Source: a virus
Lineage: Duplodnaviria; Caudoviricetes
Length of the DNA: 64,000 nt
IMG/VR virus record: IMGVR_UViG_2881966637_000004
Span: 16,464 to 80,463 of that record
Direction: 5' to 3' (one strand)
Part shown: piece by piece, positions 2,217 through 60,165 of the stretch
Layout: each line of letters starts with the position of its first letter
How positions within the stretch are numbered: position 1 is the stretch's first letter
Notes under the pieces: model-generated
Database searches by the model: none
What the model was told of the DNA's origin: nothing
Seen by the model: the letters and a program-made list of their open reading frames with translations, nothing else
Made by a program: the position numbers and the translations under genes

Positions 2217-5200
2217 AAAGGGCATGTCGTCCGACCTTGCCCCCCTGCTTACTCCCCCCGGCACCTACCAGTACGCCCATAGTCTGTACCTGGGCCTGAC
2301 GGGTGACGGGCGCGGCATGGCCCTGACCGTAGAAAAGCCCGAGCGACCCGTCACCGTGACGGGTCTGCCCGCGTCGTACCGGCTCGTCGGCCTGCAGGGG
2401 CTGGTTGCCTCCGGCGACTACCTCGCCTTTCTGACCAATCCCAACCGCCCGTCCGGCGTAGCCCGCGATCTGATCGCCCGGCTGACGCTGAACATCGACG
2501 GCCTGACGGCCTCGGCGCAGGTGCTCTTCGATGACCGGCGCGATCCGGCCGGGGCGCAGCTCAACCTGCCCGCCGGGGTGAAGCTGCAGACGCGGCTGGA
2601 AACCGAAACCGAAAGCCTGATGCGGGTCTACTGGAACGACGGGGTCAACGAGCCGCGCTGCTTGACGCTGGCCGACGGCTACGACGCCTTCGGCAGTCCG
2701 CACCACCTGTCCACCCAGGACTACCCCCGGCGGTGGAGCGTCCACCAGTTTGCCCTGCAGCCGGCGGTGCTGTGGGGTACGCCGATGTTTGAAAAGACCA
2801 CCGAAGAAGGGTCGCTGCTGTCGGGCTTCTACCGCTACAGCTACCGCTACCGTTCGGGATCGGTAGAGTCGGCCCCCTTCCCGCTCTCTACGCCCCTGAC
2901 GCTCCGCCAGGATATGGGCGAGCCCGACCTGACCAAGCCCGTACAGATGGAAGCCTCGGGGGTGTCCACCAAATCCGCCATCCACATCATTGTCGATCAG
3001 CCGGACGACCGCTGGGAAGAAGCCGAGCTGCTGATGAGCTATTCAGCCGACGGCAGCAGCTGGTCCGACCTGGTCATCGCCGACCGCAGGGCCGTACCCG
3101 AGCGGCCCTCCGTTGGGCCCGCCGAGTTGCTGCGGCTGACGCACGATAAGCCCGCCGGCCTCGGTACGACCGTATCGCTGGCGCGGCTCAGTCAGATCGA
3201 TCAGGTGGTCAGTCAGGCCGGGGTGATGACGCTGCACAAGCAGAAGCTGATCCTGGGTGATCTGACCCTGTCGATGCCGCTGGACCCGCCGACCCAGACC
3301 GTGACGCTCTCGCCCAAGCTGGTGGATATGCCCCTGGACGAAAGCGGCTTTCCCACCTCCCCCAACCGGACACTGGGACTGGCCTATACCTTTAAGCAGG
3401 CGGTGAACGACCCGCCCCTGACCGAGTCGGCCTACAAACGCCAGGACGGCACCATAGCCACGCGCACCAAACCCATCGTCGCCGACTACCGCGACTACAA
3501 AGGGGTGCAGGTAGCCCATAGCCGGGTTGGTCTGCGCGGGGGCGAGAGCTACCCCTACGCCCTGGTCCTTTTCGACATGATCGGTCAGCCGACATTCGCC
3601 TGGCCCATTGGCACGTTTGCCGCACCCAACCGCTACGACGACCCCGCCGGCAACGGCACCTTTCCCTACGCGCCCACCGCTGCCCGTAATCTGGGCACGG
3701 CCCTCGGCATGGGCTTTGTCGCCCGGCCGATGGGGTTGTCCGTGTCGGGCATCAACATCCCCGTCGAGATGGTCTTCGACGCGGCCGGCCGCCAGCAGGT
3801 ATCGGGCTTCGCCATCGTGCGGGGCAACCCGTCGGGTCGCATCAAAGCCCAGGGTATCGCCCTGCCCGCCCTCTGGGAGCAGGGTGGCCGCGACAAGTTC
3901 ATCGTCTCCATCCCCAGCTATACCAACCACCTCACCGACCAGCCGACGAGTGACGGCTTTGGGCTGTTCAACGACATTCCGGCGAAGGCTGGGGCGGTCT
4001 ATCGCCACCTGGCGGGCTGGATGACCTTTCTCTCCCCCGATCTGATGGTTGAGGGAAGTCTGGATACCAACCCGCCCACCGGCACCCGGCTCCGGCTGCT
4101 GGGCAGTATGCACGGGCCGGACGACAGCAACCACGTCCGCCAGCTCGACGGCGATAACCGCCAGCACTACGTCAAGGCGTACCGCTACATCGGCAAGTCG
4201 GCCCTGAGTCTGCGCCCGGCGGCCCGGTCCAGGCCCAACCCCGGCGAGACGACCAACATCCGCCAGGCGTACAAGACCGTGCTCAACCAGACGCTTGAAA
4301 AGTTCTACGCCGACGACCAGAGCCTGGTCTTTTCGCCGGGCGTAACCTCGTCGGCGGGGCTGGCCCAGCAGACGCCGGGCTACCTGCTCAAAGTAGACGG
4401 CTTTTCGCTGGTGGACCGGGGCGAATCCCCCACCAAGCCCGCCGGCTACGCCATCGTCAACCTCGAAGTCAACACGCCCCCGGCGGCCAGCCAGAACCAG
4501 ACGTTCCAGTGGACGAACCACTTCCAGCCCCTGACCGAAATAGTGCTGGGCGAGGTGCCGCAGGTGTTTATCAGCGGCAAAGCCTGTTACCGCTTCGATG
4601 AGGTAGAGGTCTGGGGTGGCGACACCTACCTGCCCCTGATCGACATGGCCCGGATGCTGCCCTACTACGCCCCGGTTGGCGGGTATATAGCCACCGAAGG
4701 CCACGGGCACGGCATCTTTACGGTCATTGAGAGTAAGTTCAACCACGCCCTGCGCTACGGCAGAACATATAAGCACGTCGGCACCATGCCGACTATCGAA
4801 GCTACGGGGGGCGGGGGTGGCGGCTACCGGCAGGCCATCAACGTGTTTCAGCCCGAAGACTGGAACGTCAACCAGGGGCTGCAGAGTAAAGAAACCGTCC
4901 GGCTGTTTCAGCCGCTGCCGGCCGACATCCGGCTCGAACGGCGGTGGCCACAGGGACTGGCGTGGTCGCAGGTCAAAAGCGACGGCCAGCGGCTGGACGC
5001 CTACCGACGCATACCGGCTCCAAACCTGTTTCTGCTCGAAGGCGAGAACGGCCCCGTCACCGGCTTTGCCGTGTTGTTCGGCGAACTCTACGCGGGTCAG
5101 TTCCGGGCCGTCAGCAAGGTGCGGGTCAACGAGCGGCAGCTCATCACCGACGCCACGGGCAAACCCCTGCAGATCGGCGAGGCTTCGGGGGCTGAAATCT

Positions 5201-37657: not shown

Positions 37658-39184
37658 ATGGCAAAGATTATCAAGCAACAGTTCGGGGCCGGCACACTGG
37701 ACCTGCCCTTCCTGGGACTGGCCCTCGCCCGGCAGCCGCAGATGCTGCAGGAGTTTATCGTCAGCCGGTTTGCTTCCAACAACCTGGCTCTGACGACGCT
37801 CTTCCAGGGTATCTATCCCGAGTCGCAGGGCGAAGAGGTGCTGGGTAGCAACCAGGTGAGCTGGGAGGTCTACAACCTACCCGAAAAGCCCATCTACATC
37901 GACGGCATCGTGGGTACACCGAAGGTTGGCAACGACATTGAGGTAGACCTGACCGAAGGCTGGCTCCGCGCCGGGGCCAAGCTGCGGCTCGAAGACGGCC
38001 GGACCCTGTTACACCTGCAGACCAACGGCTCTCCCCGCGCCAACGGTATCGTCCGCTACCGGGGTCGGATCGTGGGCAACAACACGGAACACGAAGCTCC
38101 GTCGTGGCTTTTCGAGCGCAACCGGGCGGCCAACTACCAGACGGCCAACTACGAGGAGGGCTCCCACATGGGCCACCCGATGTACTACGGGACGGGCGAC
38201 AAGTACAAGCAGGCGATGTCTACTCACCGCCACGACGCCGACCTGACGGGCGACGCCCTCTCGGAAGTAACGATCTTCGAGACGACCCGCGAGATACCAA
38301 ACTCGGGTGGACGCACGAAAACCTACCGGGGCTGGCTGCCCGAGTTCCTGCGGAGCCCAACAACCTCGCTGCTCGACTTCCACCAGCGGCACTGTGAACT
38401 GGATCACATTTACGGTCAGAGCAACATCAACTTTGAGACGGGCGAGATTTTCAACATCAACGAAACCAACGGCTCGAAGAAGGTGATGATGGGTGATGGG
38501 CTTATTGCTCAGCTCGACGGCGCGTACACCAAATGCTACGACCCGAAGGATTCGCTATCGTCTATCCGTAACAAGGTGAAGAATATCATCACCTATATGT
38601 CGGCCCACTGGAACAACCAGGACTTCCTGGAAATGGTCGTGATGGGTGGCATCGGGGCGGACGCCGTCTTCCAGGACGTGATGGCCGAGTTACAGGCCAG
38701 CTCGGGCGTTCAGGTGTGGCGCACGCCAGACTCAGAAGGCAAAGTCGTTGTCGGCCTTCGCTTTTCGGAGTGGATCATTGGCGGCATGGGCAAGATCAAG
38801 TTCGTGCGTAACAACAGCATGGGCGACATCACCGCCAAATCGCGCATGATCAACTACAACGGGGTTGCTCTCAACGCCGAGTCGTTCGATATGTACTTCA
38901 TGCCGATTGGGATGATGTCGAACGGCAAGACCAACATCCGCTTCTTCTCGAAGGGTAAGACGGTCAACGGCCAGCAGATCAACCGTTCGCTGGTGTTCAG
39001 CCACATCCAGGGCGTGACCGGCTACCTGTCCAACAATCTGTCGAAAGCCTCGGCGGATGGGCTGTCGGAGTATGCTAACCTGGTGGGCACCTCGCGGGAT
39101 GCCGAGCAGTTCCATCTGCTCAGCCAGAAGATGCTGATCGTTACCAACCCAACCGAGTTCGCCCGGTTGCTGGTGTACCGATAG
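37658..39184 (+). CDS. Major capsid protein, crAss-like
   Basis: 508 aa, strong codon bias; motifs such as ANYEEGS...P, STHRH...TGDA, MGDGLIAQL recalled from crAss-like MCPs; followed by a terminator. Confidence 0.75.
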   Translation: MAKIIKQQFGAGTLDLPFLGLALARQPQMLQEFIVSRFASNNLALTTLFQGIYPESQGEEVLGSNQVSWEVYNLPEKPIYIDGIVGTPKVGNDIEVDLTEGWLRAGAKLRLEDGRTLLHLQTNGSPRANGIVRYRGRIVGNNTEHEAPSWLFERNRAANYQTANYEEGSHMGHPMYYGTGDKYKQAMSTHRHDADLTGDALSEVTIFETTREIPNSGGRTKTYRGWLPEFLRSPTTSLLDFHQRHCELDHIYGQSNINFETGEIFNINETNGSKKVMMGDGLIAQLDGAYTKCYDPKDSLSSIRNKVKNIITYMSAHWNNQDFLEMVVMGGIGADAVFQDVMAELQASSGVQVWRTPDSEGKVVVGLRFSEWIIGGMGKIKFVRNNSMGDITAKSRMINYNGVALNAESFDMYFMPIGMMSNGKTNIRFFSKGKTVNGQQINRSLVFSHIQGVTGYLSNNLSKASADGLSEYANLVGTSRDAEQFHLLSQKMLIVTNPTEFARLLVYR

Positions 39185-39209
39185 TCAACTATAGTCAACG
39201 CAAGTTGAC
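39184..39209 (+). promoter_or_regulatory. Box GTCAAC TATA GTCAAC followed by an inverted unit (GCAA GTTGAC)
   Basis: Overlaps the MCP stop codon. Confidence 0.7.
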
Positions 39210-45360: not shown

Positions 45361-45610
45361 AGTCTTTGTAGTGGTTCTTGTTTCTAGCCCGGTGCCGGTG
45401 TCTGATGCGCAGTCTGGCATAGCGAACCAGTGTGTGATACAGGCCGGCGTATGAGATGATACGGGTGACTGGCCCGTCAAGTGACCACAGCAGAAGCCGG
45501 GCTATGGCCGACAGGCCCGCGTAGAGTATAGCCAGACAGACAACCCCGGCTATGGTGCATAGAACGATGAAGAGCATGAAGCCTTCGAGTCCGTTAAATT
45601 CAAGGTGCAT
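45347..45610 (-). CDS. Small membrane protein
   Basis: Hydrophobic N-half, basic C-terminus. Confidence 0.5.
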   Translation of the reverse strand: MHLEFNGLEGFMLFIVLCTIAGVVCLAILYAGLSAIARLLLWSLDGPVTRIISYAGLYHTLVRYARLRIRHRHRARNKNHYKDYGNR

Positions 45611-52056: not shown

Positions 52057-52344
52057 TTAGTAGCTACTGTAGTGGAGCAGCAGCAGTTGCTCCTGCATAT
52101 CTTCGTCGGTGATGGTAGCGCGGACGGTAGCGTAGTCAAAGTGCATGTCCGGTGTTGGCTTGAGTAGCCCGTAGGGTTGGTACGCCCAGGGCGGTGGCGG
52201 GAAGTTATAGAGGCCCGCTTCTTCCCGTCGGTTGCATACTTCCTGCCACTGCTGCAGATCGGAGTAGGTTACCCGTCTGGTGTGGAGCATCATCAGGTGC
52301 GTCTCGGAGAGATCGGGGGTTGGCTGGGGCTCACTTGTATTCAT
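52057..52344 (-). CDS. Hypothetical protein
   Basis: Between initiator and helicase; start overlaps the initiator end. Confidence 0.5.
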   Translation of the reverse strand: MNTSEPQPTPDLSETHLMMLHTRRVTYSDLQQWQEVCNRREEAGLYNFPPPPWAYQPYGLLKPTPDMHFDYATVRATITDEDMQEQLLLLHYSSY

Positions 52345-53347
52345 AGCTGCCAAAGTCGATGCGGTGCGAATAGCTGGGCTGGCTGGCTTTTACCAGCTCA
52401 ACCTGCTTGTCGGTCGCGTAGAGGTTGAAGAATCGAAAGACCTGTGATCGGTCTTTGAAGGTGTTGTTGATCGCGCGTTCGTTGACGAAGCAGTCCACAA
52501 AGTCGGTGAATGGGGCTTTAAACTTTTTGAAAAACAGGTCGGCTTTCTCGCCCCGAAACAGGATTGCCAGTAGTTTGTAAAGCTGCTCTCTGGTACAGGG
52601 GAGTCCGCTGATCCGGCACCACTCCCCTTCGGCTACCGCAAACGGATCGGTTGCTATGGCTTCCCGGTGCTGACTAACAAACGCCGGCACGTCGCCGGGT
52701 TGATAGTGAGATTGACTTGGGTTGACAAGAGCAGCAGCAGCAGCAGCAGACGGACTAACCTGCGGGTATGTCTCCATCTTATTATCTACCTCTTGTACTA
52801 CTACTCTTTTTTTTCTTTTTATACTTTTTATATTCCTTATATATGCGGGTAAACAATTTGTTAAGGGTTCCATAACATTTAGATTACCCCCCTTAACATT
52901 TAGATTAGGGTTTACCCTTAACATTTTGTTATTACCCCCCTTAACAAATTGTTTAGGGGGGGGTAATCTATTTGTTAAGGGTAGTCCACTTCCCGTCATG
53001 GTAGAAACGGCATTTGCCGGCGAGGCTGCGACAGACATCTGCAGGGGTTCGGGTTGCTGATCGTCCGCATAAAACAGAACTGCTATGGACGGCTCCACCT
53101 CAATGTGGCGGGCGTTATCGGGCTGGTTAATACTGATCAGGCCGTACTCTTTGAGGTCGTTAATGATTCGACTAATGGAGCTACTGTGTACGACGCCGGT
53201 TTGCTGGGCCAGCATCGCATTTGTGTCACAACATACCCCGCCATTACCAGCGGCCCGGTACGCAATCTGCGAGAGGACAACGCGCTCAGTCATACTCAGT
53301 GCATCGTTGGTTAAAATCTCCTGTGGAATGAATAAGCCCTTGTTCAT
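52331..53347 (-). CDS. Phage replication initiator (N-terminal wHTH)
   Basis: LFIPQEILTNDALSMTERVVLSQI...ISRIINDLKEYGLI wHTH; internal AT-rich iteron region; upstream of DnaB. Confidence 0.8.
   Translation of the reverse strand: MNKGLFIPQEILTNDALSMTERVVLSQIAYRAAGNGGVCCDTNAMLAQQTGVVHSSSISRIINDLKEYGLISINQPDNARHIEVEPSIAVLFYADDQQPEPLQMSVAASPANAVSTMTGSGLPLTNRLPPPKQFVKGGNNKMLRVNPNLNVKGGNLNVMEPLTNCLPAYIRNIKSIKRKKRVVVQEVDNKMETYPQVSPSAAAAAALVNPSQSHYQPGDVPAFVSQHREAIATDPFAVAEGEWCRISGLPCTREQLYKLLAILFRGEKADLFFKKFKAPFTDFVDCFVNERAINNTFKDRSQVFRFFNLYATDKQVELVKASQPSYSHRIDFGSYEYK
52805..52982. repeat. Probable replication origin (iterons plus AT-rich tract) within the initiator gene
   Basis: 18-bp perfect inverted repeat at 52850-52867/52938-52955; repeated ATTACCCCCCTTAACA, AACATTTAGATTA and TTTGTTAAGGGT; T-rich tract at 52805-52845. 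Confidence 0.7.
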
Positions 53348-53650: not shown

Positions 53651-54045
53651 CGTTGTAGTGGGGCTTCGGTGGGTGAATCGGGTTGTCTGGGGATGGGGGG
53701 CGGTGGTGGCGATACGATCAGGGGTGGCGGGGCAGACACATCGGTAACGCCTACCGACCCGTACTTCTCTTTGATCCTGTCCATCTCCCCGAGGAACTCT
53801 TCGACCAGTTTGGACTGGTACTTGTTGACCAGATACTGGATGTCTTCGGTGTCCAGTCTAAAGAGTTCATAAGGGCCATGACTGTAGATCATATCGCCCG
53901 ACCTAAAGCACAGATGAAATGAAGAGCAGACCTTTTTGTGAATGTCGAAAGAATGGAAACGTTCTTCGGCTGATAGCTTCTCTTCTTCTCTTATGATCGC
54001 TTCATTCTCTTTGAGAATCTGGAAGAACCTTTGGTAGTCATTCAT
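53611..54045 (-). CDS. Hypothetical protein
   Basis: 144 aa, Pro-rich C-terminus. Confidence 0.5.
   Translation of the reverse strand: MNDYQRFFQILKENEAIIREEEKLSAEERFHSFDIHKKVCSSFHLCFRSGDMIYSHGPYELFRLDTEDIQYLVNKYQSKLVEEFLGEMDRIKEKYGSVGVTDVSAPPPLIVSPPPPPIPRQPDSPTEAPLQRWLRQLKSTFRIS
53627..53642 (-). promoter_or_regulatory. Box GTCAAC TAAA GTCAAC
   Basis: Within the first codons of 53360-53650. Confidence 0.55.
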
Positions 54046-54057
54046 GGAGTTGGCTGA

Positions 54058-54390
54058 TTAAAAAGGTGTCTCTTCTCCCTCTTCGGGTATGTATGTCTCG
54101 ACGGCATCTCTTCCGTCCGGCATCTTGACACTGACATACGTGCGAATCTTTTCCTGATACGCATCGCCGATCACTTCGGAAGCCACCTCGAATAAGTCCA
54201 TGACATCAAGGGCGTGGCTGGCCGCGTTCGGCATGATTTCTTGTTGCTTACTTTTCTGATAGTACCGATCCAGTTGACCGTCAACATACTCTTCCAGTAT
54301 TTTCAACTCAACCAGCGAGAGTTCCTTTAACTGGCTCGGGTCAATAAAAAGTTGCAGGGGATTTTTTGATTTCTCAGCGGTAGCCATCAT
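54058..54390 (-). CDS. Hypothetical protein
   Basis: 110 aa, ATGA-coupled to Rha. Confidence 0.55.
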   Translation of the reverse strand: MMATAEKSKNPLQLFIDPSQLKELSLVELKILEEYVDGQLDRYYQKSKQQEIMPNAASHALDVMDLFEVASEVIGDAYQEKIRTYVSVKMPDGRDAVETYIPEEGEETPF

Positions 54391-55148
54391 CGTGCTTGTT
54401 TAAGTTGTGGTACTGGCTTTGGAGCCTCGGTGATGCCCAGCTCCTGCATCTTCTGAAACAGTGGCAGAGCGTGGGTCTTACAGATGATTGAGGCCTCGTC
54501 AATGCCGATCCGGCCAGTCTTACAGAAGTCGTCGGCGAGAGCCATTGAGGAGGCCACAGCTGGCTTGAATGTACGGATGACTTCTTTGGCCGAGGTGCGG
54601 TGCTTGGACGGTACGCCTTTTGTTTTGGCCCAGTGGAGTATTTCGTGCGGGGTCTTGCCGGTGTGGTGGAAACAGTTGGCCCGGTTGTAGGCGATAGCCT
54701 GATCCTTTCCACCCTGCGAGAAGTTGTAGCTGTTCACTTCTTTGCTGTTGGCGATCTGCTTGGGTCGCTGGGTAAAGACCAACAGCTGCTTTACCTCTGG
54801 GCTTTCTGATACCTGGCTTCGCTCCTCTTCGAGTTGTTGCCAACGCTGGATGATCTTGTGCCGGGCCACTACGTCGTAACCCGACAGAAGGGTTATTGTC
54901 GTGTTCTTGTCCAGCCAATACAAGGGTAGTTGCTTTCCCTGTTCGCTAACATAAAACCCTGATTCACAATGAAAGCTCAAAGTTGAGCCGTCCGCTGCTG
55001 CTGCCTTTAGCTGACGCAGCATGGTTCTAATGTCTCGGATAACGTTCTTGTGAATCTTTCCGGTTAGCTCGGCTATTTCCAAGCTGTTCATTGTGCGAAC
55101 CGGGCCAGTAGATGACTGGCCTGCTGGTTGTGGTGCTGTGGACTTCAT
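54387..55148 (-). CDS. rha: Rha family phage regulatory protein (antirepressor-like)
   Basis: MNSLEIAELTGKIHKNVIRDIRTML...GYDVVARHKIIQRWQQLE is the Rha signature; start taken at ATG 55148, downstream of the leader structure. Confidence 0.8.
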   Translation of the reverse strand: MKSTAPQPAGQSSTGPVRTMNSLEIAELTGKIHKNVIRDIRTMLRQLKAAAADGSTLSFHCESGFYVSEQGKQLPLYWLDKNTTITLLSGYDVVARHKIIQRWQQLEEERSQVSESPEVKQLLVFTQRPKQIANSKEVNSYNFSQGGKDQAIAYNRANCFHHTGKTPHEILHWAKTKGVPSKHRTSAKEVIRTFKPAVASSMALADDFCKTGRIGIDEASIICKTHALPLFQKMQELGITEAPKPVPQLKQAR

Positions 55149-55163
55149 CGTGTTGATAAATAA

Positions 55164-55250
55164 AAGAGGTAACCCCTCCAATGGTATGTTGCGTTGGCGA
55201 CGCAAGACGGGACAGCGACCGTCTACATACCATTGGAGGGGTTACCTCTT
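55164..55250 (-). ncRNA. Structured leader RNA: 26-bp perfect stem capped by two hairpins, followed by a U-rich run
   Basis: 55164-55189 is the exact reverse complement of 55225-55250; the loop holds TTGCGT/ACGCAA and AGACGG/CCGTCT hairpins. Confidence 0.7.
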
Positions 55251-55306
55251 AATGTCCTGCTGTCTATGTACCATCGAGTGCCAGTCGATGCGGGGGCAAC
55301 TGTTAC

Positions 55307-55322
55307 GTTGATAAAAGTTGAC
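55307..55322 (-). promoter_or_regulatory. Box GTCAAC TTTT ATCAAC
   Basis: In the Rha leader. Confidence 0.6.
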
Positions 55323-55335
55323 GAGGACGTTAAGT

Positions 55336-55362
55336 AAGCCCACCATCAGGGACAGTGGGCTT
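55336..55362 (-). other. 8-bp hairpin in the Rha leader
   Basis: AAGCCCAC (55336-43) pairs with GTGGGCTT (55355-62). Confidence 0.5.
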
Positions 55363-55428
55363 TACCATAGAATACATTCCTCTTGAGCGTCAACTTGTAA
55401 TAACCCTTACCCACTCAACAAACCGGCC

Positions 55429-55465
55429 CGAAAAGATAGTTCCAAACTAGTTGACAAAAGTTTAC
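55429..55465 (-). promoter_or_regulatory. Box GTAAAC TTTT GTCAAC plus TATCTTTTCG -7-like element (Rha leader promoter)
   Basis: Box at 55450-55465; -7-like element at 55429-55438 on the minus strand. Confidence 0.6.
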
Positions 55466-55468
55466 TAT

Positions 55469-56020
55469 TTAATACGGCTTACCCTCAACCCTTGCTTCGG
55501 CTTTAAGCTGGGCGAACCACTTCTCGTCAGGGAATATGGCGTGCTGGTGCGGGAAGAAGAACAGCTCCACCCCTACTTGCTCGCGCTCAGAATGAACCGA
55601 AATCTGGTGGAGAACCCCCATGTCCGTGAGGCTGTGTAGTTCCTGATACACATCGCCATGAAACATCCCCACCACGCCAGCTACCTCCTCGCAGGTTACC
55701 ATTTGTAAGCCGCCAAATGTAGCATCCCTATTCCCTGTGAGTATGCTTTTGAATACGATCTTGGCTACACCAAAGACAACGACGGCGAGGTTCTTTGAGG
55801 TTTCTCGGGCCAGGGCGTGTGGATACTGGGCCATGCCCTGTTCGGTAAGCATGATTCGCTTTACATCCTCGGGATTGACCGACTCAAACAGGTAAACAAA
55901 GCCGAGTTTGCACACATCCTCCGGGGATACTGATGGCGTGGATGGTGATTGCTTTGGGGATGGCTCATCCGAATACGCTTTTACTGAGCCTGTGTTGACT
56001 GTCATCATATTCTGGTACAT
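55469..56020 (-). CDS. Hypothetical protein
   Basis: 183 aa, AACCAACC-type leader. Confidence 0.55.
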   Translation of the reverse strand: MYQNMMTVNTGSVKAYSDEPSPKQSPSTPSVSPEDVCKLGFVYLFESVNPEDVKRIMLTEQGMAQYPHALARETSKNLAVVVFGVAKIVFKSILTGNRDATFGGLQMVTCEEVAGVVGMFHGDVYQELHSLTDMGVLHQISVHSEREQVGVELFFFPHQHAIFPDEKWFAQLKAEARVEGKPY

Positions 56021-56032
56021 ATTATTGGTTGG

Positions 56033-56251
56033 TTAAAATTTACGCTCTTTGATTGCTATGTAAACGGATACCGTAATGACCAGGTCTATAAAGACGAAGA
56101 TCAGAAAAAAGAATCGCGTGACCCTGTGCCATGTGGATACATCTGGGTTCCACTGGATAAAGGAAAAGAACAGGTACGGTATCGGGATAGACACCAGCAG
56201 GGCGGCCAGGACAATGCCGATCCGCCGTATAGTTTTCATTGTGCTATTCAT
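56033..56251 (-). CDS. Small two-TM membrane protein
   Basis: Two hydrophobic helices around WNPDVSTW. Confidence 0.55.
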   Translation of the reverse strand: MNSTMKTIRRIGIVLAALLVSIPIPYLFFSFIQWNPDVSTWHRVTRFFFLIFVFIDLVITVSVYIAIKERKF

Positions 56252-56549
56252 TGGCTTGGTTGGTTAGTAGTTCGATTCGTTTATTGATCGTCTCCAAATT
56301 CTTGATCACCTCATCCCGCACCATCTGCCAGGCTACCACCTCTTCCGTCTGCGCTTCCAGCAGATCAATCAGGTGCAGGTAGTGCGGCTTCTTGGTGATG
56401 GGCTTACCGTCGTCACCGTCGGGGAACAGGACCGTGTAGTAGTCACGGCCCAATACCCGTCGGTCGAGTATCCAGTGCGTTACGTCGGTCGCCCCCGGAA
56501 TGTAGAGGCTGGTGCCTGGGGCGAGTTCGCTGAGTTCATCGGCGGTCAT
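56244..56549 (-). CDS. Hypothetical protein
   Basis: 101 aa, coupled. Confidence 0.55.
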   Translation of the reverse strand: MTADELSELAPGTSLYIPGATDVTHWILDRRVLGRDYYTVLFPDGDDGKPITKKPHYLHLIDLLEAQTEEVVAWQMVRDEVIKNLETINKRIELLTNQANE

Positions 56550-56567
56550 GGGTGTGCTGGTTTAAAC

Positions 56568-56900
56568 TTATCCTCTGTCTACTGGATACATCTCATGCTC
56601 TTTGGCAATTCTGTCTACATCCGGATGGACACAGATGGTAAAGAGTTCGCCGTCCACCGAATGAGTTTGCCGCTGGTACATATCCCCTGGCAGTATCCTG
56701 CCCTTATTATGGCGCAGAAACTTTACCAGTAGTCGCCGGTCGGCGAACGAAACAAACTCAAACGCCTCTGGTGGGCATAAAGAAACCCACTCGCAGGCGT
56801 TGCAAGGGTATTCCTTACGCGCCTTCTGGGTGCTGGTGTACGCTAATCGTGCTGTCGTCATGGCTATGTCTGGATTATGTTGGCTTTGATACCCACCCAC
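56568..56900 (-). CDS. Hypothetical Cys-containing protein
   Basis: ARKEYPCNAC...C.HP.C-like pattern; start may be the internal MTTARL. Confidence 0.55.
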   Translation of the reverse strand: MGGYQSQHNPDIAMTTARLAYTSTQKARKEYPCNACEWVSLCPPEAFEFVSFADRRLLVKFLRHNKGRILPGDMYQRQTHSVDGELFTICVHPDVDRIAKEHEMYPVDRG

Positions 56901-57247
56901 TCCCAGCCGAATCGGGCCAGCACGTAGATGGTAGATACCCCCGACTGACGGGTGGGGCGTATGAATACGCGGTGGTCTTTTGGATTATGCTGCGCGAACA
57001 GGTTGTTGACTCGGAAGAACTGACGGCTTCTCCATTTGTCGTTGTTGGAGTTCCATAGCATTTGCATCAGCAGCTCCTGCCCTGCCGTAATCAGGCTACC
57101 ATCATCATCGCGCTCGGCTTTCCAAAGGGCGGTGTGCAGTATGTTGGTGCGAACCAGACTCACCGGCTCGTCACCCTCGCTAGACCAAGTCAACACTGGA
57201 CCCAGCAGGATCACCCGAAGTTGGGATTCAAATAGATTCGCGTTCAT
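56864..57247 (-). CDS. Hypothetical protein
   Basis: 127 aa, overlapping neighbours. Confidence 0.5.
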   Translation of the reverse strand: MNANLFESQLRVILLGPVLTWSSEGDEPVSLVRTNILHTALWKAERDDDGSLITAGQELLMQMLWNSNNDKWRSRQFFRVNNLFAQHNPKDHRVFIRPTRQSGVSTIYVLARFGWEWVGIKANIIQT

Positions 57248-60149: not shown

Positions 60150-60165
60150 GTTGATATAGGTTGAC
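60150..60165 (-). promoter_or_regulatory. Box GTCAAC CTAT ATCAAC
   Basis: Fills the gap between the stop at 60165 and the ATG at 60145. Confidence 0.65.

What the first reader, a model, noticed from the sequence alone, without database searches (positions are those of the whole stretch)
55148..55465. Y-shaped RNA with a perfect 26-bp stem in the long leader of the Rha gene: candidate c4/CI-like riboregulator
Seen in sequence: 55164-55189 and 55225-55250 are exact reverse complements. The 35-nt loop folds into two hairpins (AGACGG-N8-CCGTCT and TTGCGT-N5-ACGCAA), giving a three-way junction. On the minus strand the stem is followed by TTATTT and then the rha ATG about 15 nt later. The ~280-nt leader also holds an 8-bp hairpin, one RTCAAC box, and a -7-like promoter with a second box beside it. 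The GCUGUC loop has a 6-nt complement (GACAGC, 55259-55264) just upstream, which is weak evidence. Established knowledge: P1/P7 c4 RNA and P4 CI RNA are structured leader RNAs that shut off downstream antirepressor or lytic genes. Inference: an analogous attenuator or antisense RNA controls an antirepressor-like gene in a Bacteroidota phage.
Basis: partly seen in the sequence, partly recalled or inferred. Interest (0 to 1): 0.75.

Follow-up and report, generated by a model that had tools for sequence, protein, structure and literature searches.

The report
Giant hairpin before a prophage rha gene
A real and very stable 87-nt hairpin sits just upstream of an antirepressor-like (Rha) gene in a prophage of a Spirosoma-like bacterium; it most likely acts as a terminator-type barrier in the messenger RNA, and no tested defining feature supports a c4/CI-like small RNA.

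Summary
Positions 55164-55189 and 55225-55250 are perfect 26-nt reverse complements around a 35-nt core. The fold is -60 to -66 kcal/mol (z about -11). It is the longest inverted repeat in the window and occurs once in the 7.4-Mb genome. The two small core hairpins that give the Y shape are only marginally better than chance (9 of 200 shuffles). The 6-nt loop complement is at chance level (0.17).

No Rfam family matches, including C4, IsrK and sRNA-Xcc1. No tRNA-like fold or host-type promoter was found in the leader. No homologue appeared in about 250 related genomes or three contig collections. The closest Rha relatives (59-68% identity) have no long leader. One 185-nt contig from a roughly 95%-identical relative keeps the element: 1 change in 77 nt, against 7 in the adjacent 57 nt.

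Three things favour a sense-strand intrinsic-terminator/attenuator hairpin (confidence about 0.4):
- The U-rich tail lies only on the transcribed strand.
- Long perfect repeats in this host behave like terminators.
- Two other junctions in this phage show the same order: box, hairpin, U-run, then ATG about 16 nt later.

RNase III processing, a DNA-level role, a neutral young palindrome and a new c4-like switch remain open. Earlier notes of this scan found IsrK/C4 switches before rha in other genomes, not this element. Interest is modest.

The parts
55164..55250 (-). 87-nt hairpin: a perfect 26-bp stem closing a 35-nt core
   Evidence: It is the longest inverted repeat in the window and single-copy in the genome.
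55164..55189 (.). Left arm of the 26-nt inverted repeat (the 3' arm on the transcribed minus strand)
   Evidence: One C>T change at 55179 is seen in a relative's contig.
55225..55250 (.). Right arm of the 26-nt inverted repeat (the 5' arm on the minus strand)
55190..55204 (-). Sub-hairpin of the core (plus strand TGCGT-TGGCG-ACGCA), a 5-6 bp stem with a 5-nt loop
   Evidence: It is only marginally non-random.
55205..55224 (-). Sub-hairpin of the core (plus strand AGACGG-GACAGCGA-CCGTCT), a 6-bp stem with an 8-nt loop
55149..55163 (-). U-rich tail after the stem (UUAUUUAUCAACACG), containing a half box AUCAAC at 55152-55157. It is also the AU-rich stretch before ATG 55148.
   Evidence: The T-tail score is 3.1-3.2 on the minus strand and 0.6-2.1 on the plus strand.
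54387..55148 (-). Rha-family (antirepressor-like) gene; an alternative start lies at 55091
55315..55396 (-). Second large leader hairpin. An inverted GTTGAC pairs with the first half of box 2, and the hairpin is followed by UUUUAUCAAC.
   Evidence: -33 kcal/mol, z -4.6; I5/I17.
55307..55322 (-). Tandem box 2 (GTCAACTTTTATCAAC)
55450..55465 (-). Tandem box 1 (GTAAACTTTTGTCAAC), followed by TAGTTTGG, an imperfect -7-like box
55469..56020 (-). Upstream 183-aa ORF. It is the last gene before the non-coding gap and has no relative in the protein collection.

Best explanation
The element is a cis-acting RNA hairpin on the sense (minus-strand) transcript of the phage early operon. It most likely acts as an intrinsic-terminator/attenuator-type barrier. 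It lies at the end of a 320-nt non-coding gap, just before rha and the replication genes.

Proposed mechanism:
1. RNA polymerase comes from the cro-side early promoter.
2. It crosses the recombination and methylase genes, then meets the hairpin at 55315-55396 with its UUUU run.
3. It then meets the 87-nt hairpin, followed by UUUUAUUUAU.
4. Many transcripts would end there, so Rha and the replication module are made only on read-through or antitermination.

What is shown: the structure, its strand-specific U-rich tail, its position, and the same layout at other junctions of this phage. What is inferred: termination itself, the source of the transcripts, and any factor that overrides the barrier.
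For: 1. Stability is extreme: z is -11 on the minus strand.
2. The U-rich tail is on the transcribed strand only. The T-tail score is 3.1-3.2 there and 0.6-2.1 on the other strand. The terminator scan picks up the base of the stem on the minus strand.
3. Base rate in this host: of 407 perfect inverted repeats with arms of at least 16 nt, 167 lie between convergent genes, 170 between co-directional genes and 29 between divergent genes. That is 28%, 7% and 3.7% of the respective gaps of at least 40 bp. The co-directional ones lie a median 28 nt after the upstream stop. As a class they behave like terminators.
4. The same order occurs elsewhere in this phage, always co-oriented with the genes. 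The order is stop codon, tandem GTCAAC box, strong hairpin, U-rich run, and, where the next start is clear, about 16 nt to the ATG.
   - On the minus strand: box 45680-45665, then a 14-bp GC hairpin, UUUU, and the ATG at 45610.
   - On the plus strand: box 39184-39199, then a 13-bp GC hairpin and UAUUUAAC; the next start is unclear.
5. The element sits at a module boundary: Erf/Rad52-like annealing protein, methylase and orphan ORFs upstream; Rha, an O-like initiator, DnaB and a sliding clamp downstream. It is in the only long non-coding gap of that operon.
6. A roughly 95%-identical relative keeps the element with 1 change in 77 nt, against 7 in the adjacent 57 nt (Fisher p = 0.011).
7. There is precedent. 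In Gifsy-1 a leader terminator, whose read-through makes the mRNA, lies upstream of the Rha-like anrP (PMC4825925).
Against: - No RNA data exist for this organism, so no 3' end is shown.
- The hairpin lies 218 nt after the upstream stop and 15 nt before the ATG. By contrast, 75% of co-directional host repeats lie nearer the stop.
- A 26-bp stem with a branched top is much larger than the ordinary terminators of this phage. Its base is AU-rich and the U-run is interrupted.
- All 37-38 pairs are Watson-Crick, with no G-U. That fits a DNA-level constraint or a young palindrome better than an old RNA-only structure.
- The single change in the relative (55179 C>T) gives G-U on the plus-strand RNA but an A-C mismatch on the minus-strand RNA. 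This rests on one low-depth contig.
- The closest Rha relatives lack any such leader.
- No antiterminator is recognisable among the genes.
Confidence: 0.4

Rival explanations
1. The hairpin is an mRNA processing, stability or translation-control element. The 26-bp uninterrupted double-stranded RNA would be cut by RNase III, or would act as a protective or standby hairpin. This would uncouple the rha-replication message from the upstream message and set rha translation, as RNase III sites do in the lambda N leader and in T7 early mRNA (established knowledge).
For: - 26 uninterrupted base pairs exceed the roughly two helical turns that RNase III needs.
- The stem ends 15 nt before ATG 55148, next to an AU-rich unstructured stretch.
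Against: - No cleavage or RNA data exist.
- This reading does not explain the strand-specific U-run any better than termination does.
- Nothing comparable is conserved before related rha genes.
Confidence: 0.18
2. The palindrome is young and largely neutral. It would have arisen by template switching, or arrived as a foreign hairpin insertion with this leader module, and has no dedicated role.
For: - Complementarity is perfect, with no G-U pair and no mismatch.
- No homologue was found anywhere.
- The closest Rha relatives have no leader.
- The host genome is rich in long perfect repeats.
Against: - A relative at about 95% identity keeps it with less change than the flanks (Fisher p = 0.011 to 0.048).
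- The strand-specific U-run and the match to this phage's junction layout would then be coincidences.
Confidence: 0.15
3. The function is at the DNA level. The perfect palindrome would extrude as a cruciform, or fold in single-stranded DNA, and serve as a protein-binding, priming or replication-associated site next to the replication module. Its T/Y shape resembles parvovirus terminal repeats or single-strand origins in outline only.
For: - All stems are Watson-Crick on both strands, so both strands fold equally well.
- It lies about 2 kb from the O-like initiator and DnaB genes.
Against: - A better origin candidate exists: iteron-like repeats inside the O-like initiator gene at 52850-52983.
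- No HUH/Rep, transposase or recombinase gene was recognised among the neighbouring genes scanned.
- The U/A flank asymmetry points to a transcript-level role.
- The relative's change breaks perfect symmetry.
Confidence: 0.12
4. One reading: a c4/CI/IsrK-like riboregulator. The Y-shaped RNA would be released from the leader, and its loops would pair with sites at the rha start to block or permit translation.
For: - Its position before a Rha-type gene matches known systems: C4/IsrK switches noted before rha in other genomes, sRNA-Xcc1 before a Rha gene in L006 and before an ORF6N gene in APSE phages.
- Loop GCUGU has complements GACAGC at 55259-55264 and ACAGC at +10 of ATG 55148 and +5 of ATG 55091.
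- A hairpin plus a U-run would give such an RNA a defined 3' end.
Against: - No covariance-model match to C4, IsrK or sRNA-Xcc1.
- The complementarity is at chance level (0.17).
- No perfect host-type -7 box in the leader and no tRNA-like fold for RNase P.
- The junction has no unpaired nucleotides, and the 26-bp stem is unlike these sRNAs.
- No homologues exist to test covariation.
Confidence: 0.08

Closest known systems
Intra-operon intrinsic terminators of temperate phages (for example lambda tR1 between cro and cII-O-P)
   Same: A hairpin plus a U-rich run on the sense strand, inside the early operon, just ahead of the regulator and replication genes. It would gate delayed-early expression.
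   Different: The stem is 26 bp with a branched top, far larger than classical terminators. No N/Q-like antiterminator or nut-like site is recognisable. Termination has not been shown.
IsrK leader terminator of the isrK-orf45-anrP locus in Salmonella Gifsy-1 (PMC4825925)
   Same: A terminator hairpin in the leader of a Rha-like antirepressor gene, where read-through produces the mRNA.
   Different: No sequence or covariance-model similarity. No promoter was identified in this leader. No evidence of a trans-acting short isoform. The host phylum is different.
P1/P7 c4 and P4 CI antisense RNAs (Rfam C4, RF01695)
   Same: A structured RNA encoded upstream of an antirepressor-type gene.
   Different: No model match. 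No significant seed complementarity. The closing stem is about three times longer. No processing signals were found.
sRNA-Xcc1 (Rfam RF02221)
   Same: A three-way-junction RNA of about 87 nt. It is found here in two tandem copies directly upstream of a Rha-family gene in viral contig L006.
   Different: Its closing stem is 9 bp, with unpaired junction nucleotides and conserved loops. The window element does not match the model.
Long perfect palindromic terminator-like hairpins of the host genome
   Same: Perfect Watson-Crick arms of 16-37 nt in intergenic DNA, enriched after stop codons and between convergent genes. Covariance-model hits in related genomes are of this generic kind.
   Different: Most host examples have short loops and lie close to the upstream stop. 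This one has a 35-nt structured core, lies next to the downstream start, and is phage-borne and unique.

Membership tests
C4/CI antisense RNA (Rfam RF01695; P1 c4, P4 CI) | Match to the family covariance model | tested here: not met
   cmscan of 54000-57000 at E up to 10 lists only spurious miRNA models over the hairpin. The whole window at gathering thresholds gives nothing.
C4/CI antisense RNA (Rfam RF01695; P1 c4, P4 CI) | Exposed seed sequences complementary to target sites at the ribosome-binding region of the downstream gene | tested here: inconclusive
   Only 5-6-nt matches to the 8-nt loop were found: GACAGC at 55259-55264, and ACAGC at 55135-55139 and 55083-55087. A 6-mer match occurs in 17% of shuffles. 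The 5-nt loop has no match.
C4/CI antisense RNA (Rfam RF01695; P1 c4, P4 CI) | Lies upstream of an antirepressor-type gene in the same transcript | tested here: met
   The downstream gene matches PF09669 (Phage_pRha) and PHROG anti-repressor families.
C4/CI antisense RNA (Rfam RF01695; P1 c4, P4 CI) | Processed out of the leader transcript (RNase P, tRNA-like end) | not testable with these tools
   ARAGORN finds no tRNA-like structure in the window. No RNA run was listed.
IsrK / sRNA-Xcc1 type prophage sRNAs | Match to RF01394 or RF02221 | tested here: not met
   No hit. The same search does find two sRNA-Xcc1 copies in L006, so the method works.
Intrinsic (factor-independent) terminator | Stable hairpin on the transcribed strand | tested here: met
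   The 87-nt element folds at -59.9 kcal/mol, and z is -11 in context.
Intrinsic (factor-independent) terminator | U-rich tract immediately 3' of the stem, strand-specific | tested here: met
   The stem end plus tail reads CUCUUUUAUUUAU. The T-tail score is 3.1-3.2 on the minus strand and 0.6-2.1 on the plus strand. The scan lists it. The run is interrupted by A residues.
Intrinsic (factor-independent) terminator | RNA 3' ends map to the U-tract | not testable with these tools
   No RNA holder was listed. The laid runs are short DNA-type contigs.
RNase III processing site | About 20 bp or more of uninterrupted double-stranded RNA | tested here: met
   26 perfect pairs. Cleavage itself cannot be tested here.
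Invertible DNA switch (inverton) | Inverted repeats flanking a segment found in both orientations, with a recombinase | tested here: not met
   The core is only 35 bp. The one relative contig has it in the same orientation. No recombinase was recognised among the neighbouring genes scanned.
MITE / REP-like repeated palindromic element | Multiple copies in the genome | tested here: not met
   Only the locus itself matches in the own genome. None was found in 54 genomes of the genus or about 200 of the family.

The most novel reading that the evidence does not exclude
The element is a Bacteroidota counterpart of the IsrK/C4 and sRNA-Xcc1 devices that guard Rha-type antirepressor genes in proteobacterial phages, unrelated to them in sequence. 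A short leader RNA would end at the giant hairpin. Its loops, or the choice between termination and read-through, would decide whether Rha and the replication genes are made. The choice might be read together with the phage's dispersed GTCAAC tandem boxes.
Probability: 0.1. Interest if true: 0.65.

Novelty: new member of a known kind. Interest (0 to 1): 0.3.

Why it matters
Little is known about how temperate phages of Cytophagales and other Bacteroidota regulate their genes. If the hairpin is a terminator-type gate before rha and the replication genes, it marks the immediate-early/delayed-early boundary of this prophage. It would also imply an unrecognised read-through or antitermination mechanism, possibly tied to the dispersed GTCAAC boxes. 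As it stands, this is one unconserved structure in one phage, and the ordinary explanation fits. Its value is mainly as an annotation, and as a pointer for an RNA-end mapping experiment on this lysogen.

Tried and rejected
- **Homologue searches, all negative.** These were:
  - blastn of the leader in the own genome, where only the locus itself matches;
  - 200 genomes of the family and 54 of the genus;
  - the phage collection;
  - exact or gapped pattern scans of viral, genome and metagenome contigs for the stem or the core.
- **Single-sequence covariance model R1.** It was run on 54 genus genomes, 150 family genomes and all fetched loci. Its hits, of 28-35 bits, are unbranched or single-branched long perfect hairpins in ordinary chromosomal settings. 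One lies after an AhpC-like gene. I rejected them as homologues.
- **Leaders of Rha relatives.** I fetched loci for five of the closest proteins and got gene positions only for a sixth. The rha gene follows a small gene by 3-52 nt, or in one locus sits divergent from the repressor across a 346-nt gap. The two loci scanned for inverted repeats show none before rha. Covariation therefore cannot be tested.
- **The upstream 183-aa protein.** It has no relative, so synteny could not be used.
- **RNA evidence.** No RNA holder was listed. The four runs laid give only 151-236-nt contigs.
- **Rejected identities.**
  - Ribozyme, Y RNA or tRNA-like RNA: no Rfam or ARAGORN hit.
  - MITE/REP: the element is single-copy.
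  - Inverton: the core is too short, the relative has the same orientation, and no recombinase was recognised among the neighbouring genes scanned.
  - Replication origin: a better iteron cluster lies inside the O-like initiator gene.
- **Promoter in the leader.** There is no perfect TAnnTTTG box there, only the imperfect TAGTTTGG and TATCTTTT with wrong -33 spacing.
- **Antiterminator.** None was recognised in the early-region ORFs scanned.

Full report
**1. The observation**

Positions 55164-55189 and 55225-55250 are exact 26-nt reverse complements separated by 35 nt.
- In a 131-nt context the minus-strand RNA folds at -66.2 kcal/mol (z -11.0; none of 200 shuffles as good).
- The plus strand folds at -67.6 kcal/mol (z -8.8).
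- With DNA parameters the same fold is -39.7 kcal/mol (z -13.2).

It is the longest inverted repeat in the window and occurs once in the 7.37-Mb genome.

Taken alone, the core has z of only -1.9, and 9 of 200 shuffles fold as well. The Y shape is therefore a weak observation. The 26-bp stem is the strong one.

The loop complement GACAGC (55259-55264) is present but at chance level (0.17).

On the minus strand the stem is followed by UUAUUUAUCAACACG and then the ATG at 55148.

**2. The gene and its start**

The downstream gene is a Rha-family protein (PF09669, E 6e-15; PHROG anti-repressor families). Its relatives are named in Spirosoma records.

The stored gene call starts at ATG 55091 (234 aa). 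However, homologues conserve V-[KR]-T-[ML] just before that Met, and one of them has Leu there. So ATG 55148 is a plausible start. The stem ends 15 nt before the first candidate start or 72 nt before the second.

**3. Context**

All genes from about 63900 down to 44400 lie on the minus strand.
- Upstream of the 320-nt gap are a DNA methylase, an Erf/Rad52-like annealing protein and orphan ORFs.
- Downstream are rha, three small ORFs, an O-like initiator, a DnaB-like helicase, a MazG-like protein, a sliding clamp, a resolvase and an HNH endonuclease.

The gap is therefore the boundary between an early/recombination block and the rha/replication block.

The gap also holds two copies of the phage's tandem GTCAAC-N4-GTCAAC box. 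That box occurs 32 times in the window against 4.4 expected. The gap contains a half box after the big stem as well. A second large hairpin lies at 55315-55396 (z -4.6), with an inverted GTTGAC pairing to box 2 at its base, and it is followed by UUUUAUCAAC.

The leader has no perfect host-type -7 box. Transcription most likely enters from upstream; this is an inference.

**4. Relatives**

No homologue of the element was found.
- blastn of the own genome matches only the locus itself; 200 family genomes, 54 genus genomes and the phage collection give nothing.
- Pattern scans of three contig collections were negative.
- A covariance model built from the element returned only generic long hairpins in chromosomal settings.

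For the closest Rha proteins (59-68% identity), rha lies 3-52 nt after a small cro-side gene, or in one locus 346 nt from a divergent repressor. The two loci scanned for inverted repeats show none before rha. The structure is therefore not a conserved attribute of this Rha lineage, and covariation cannot be tested.

The only comparative datum is a 185-nt contig from a public run, about 95% identical, covering 55056-55240.
- It has 9 differences in 55086-55124.
- It has one difference in the element, 55179 C>T, whose partner 55235 is unchanged.
- The core is in the same orientation.

The element is less changed than the adjacent 57 nt (1 of 77 against 7 of 57; Fisher p = 0.011), which hints at constraint. 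The single change gives G-U on the plus-strand RNA and A-C on the minus strand. One low-depth contig is too little to decide the strand.

**5. What such repeats are in this host and this phage**

The host genome has 407 perfect inverted repeats with arms of at least 16 nt and spacers of at most 80 nt.
- 167 lie between convergent genes, which is 28% of such gaps.
- 170 lie between co-directional genes (7% of such gaps), at a median 28 nt after the upstream stop.
- Only 29 lie in divergent gaps (3.7%).

This is the pattern expected of terminators.

Within the phage, two other junctions show stop codon, tandem box, GC-rich hairpin and then a U-rich run.
- On the minus strand: box 45680-45665, then the hairpin and UUUU, with the next ATG at 45610, about 16 nt after the hairpin.
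- On the plus strand: box 39184-39199, then the hairpin and UAUUUAAC; the next start there is unclear.

Both are co-oriented with the genes. The rha hairpin fits this layout and has a U-rich tail on the transcribed strand only.

**6. Best explanation**

The element is most likely a sense-strand terminator/attenuator-type hairpin that gates entry into rha and the replication genes (confidence about 0.4). Shown: the structure, the tail asymmetry, the position, and the recurrent layout. Inferred: termination, read-through control, and the source of transcripts.

Points against:
- the unusual size and the branched top;
- the AU-rich stem base and the interrupted U-run;
- the location next to the downstream start rather than the upstream stop;
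- perfect Watson-Crick pairing throughout;
- no RNA data.

The rivals are an RNase III processing or stability site (0.18), a young neutral palindrome (0.15), a DNA-level cruciform or single-strand site (0.12), and a c4/IsrK-like riboregulator (0.08).

**7. Comparison with known systems**

Rfam finds nothing real here. The only hits are spurious miRNA models over the hairpin, and nothing reaches gathering score.

The same tool finds two sRNA-Xcc1 copies, which are three-way junctions of about 87 nt with a 9-bp closing stem, directly before a Rha gene in viral contig L006. The literature places sRNA-Xcc1 before an ORF6N gene in APSE phages. It also describes c4 RNA as repressing Ant synthesis in P1 (PMC8546580) and the IsrK leader terminator as acting upstream of anrP (PMC4825925).

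Earlier notes of this scan report IsrK/C4 switches before rha in several other genomes. None reports this element.

RNA devices before Rha-type genes are thus a known theme. This element shares the position and the rough outline. It fails the testable membership criteria for those families.

**8. Verdict**

This is a real, extreme and apparently constrained hairpin. It is most simply read as a terminator-type leader element of one Spirosoma-type prophage. It is a new member of a known kind, of modest interest, unless RNA-end mapping shows a discrete regulatory RNA.

Noticed in passing
L006:2660-2744 and L006:2869-2953: Two tandem copies of sRNA-Xcc1 (RF02221; 58 and 62 bits, above the gathering score of 53) lie directly upstream of a Rha-family gene that starts near 3001 in viral contig IMGVR_UViG_639633022_000004. 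The second copy overlaps a 19-nt imperfect inverted repeat that ends 5 nt before the ATG.
   Followed up: partly
window:52850-52983: A dense cluster of direct and inverted repeats of CCCTTAACAAATTGTTTA-like units lies inside the O-like replication initiator gene (52331-53347). It is a likely phage replication origin, as in lambda O.
   Followed up: no
window: 32 sites, e.g. 25429, 33785, 39184, 45665, 47570, 53627, 60150, 62466, 63063, 63404: The tandem GTCAAC-N4-GTCAAC box occurs 32 times with up to 2 mismatches, against 4.4 expected. It is oriented with local transcription. It often fills the few nucleotides between a stop codon and the next ATG, as close as 4 nt before the ATG at 60165. That is too close to act as a promoter there, which suggests a roadblock/operator or an RNA-level site.
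   Followed up: partly
window:45627-45662 (-) and window:39218-39249 (+): GC-rich hairpins of 13-14 bp, each followed by a U-rich run, lie immediately after a tandem box. On the minus strand the next ATG follows about 16 nt later. The layout matches that of the rha leader.
   Followed up: partly
whole genome G000: The genome has 407 perfect inverted repeats with arms of at least 16 nt (88 single-copy ones with arms of at least 22 nt). They occupy 28% of convergent intergenic gaps. Several repeated families occur, for example CCCCCCAGCCCCCTAAAGGGGGAG. Very long perfect terminator-like palindromes seem typical of this genus.
   Followed up: partly
window:55469-56020 (-): This 183-aa ORF has no relative among 5.8 billion protein clusters and no Pfam or PHROG hit. 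Even so, short reads or contigs identical to its 3' half appear in runs of three different studies.
   Followed up: no
window:54387-54783 (-) and L003:3001-3396: The C-terminal half of Rha (residues 122-253) is 89% identical to the C-terminus of a protein with a KilA-N type N-terminal domain in another viral contig. This is a domain swap at the DNA-binding end of an antirepressor-like protein.
   Followed up: no
L007:3991-4049: A 26-nt perfect inverted repeat with a 7-nt loop (A-run, GC stem, T-run) lies between convergent genes next to a Spirosoma Rha gene. It is a textbook bidirectional terminator of the same arm length as the element studied.
   Followed up: no
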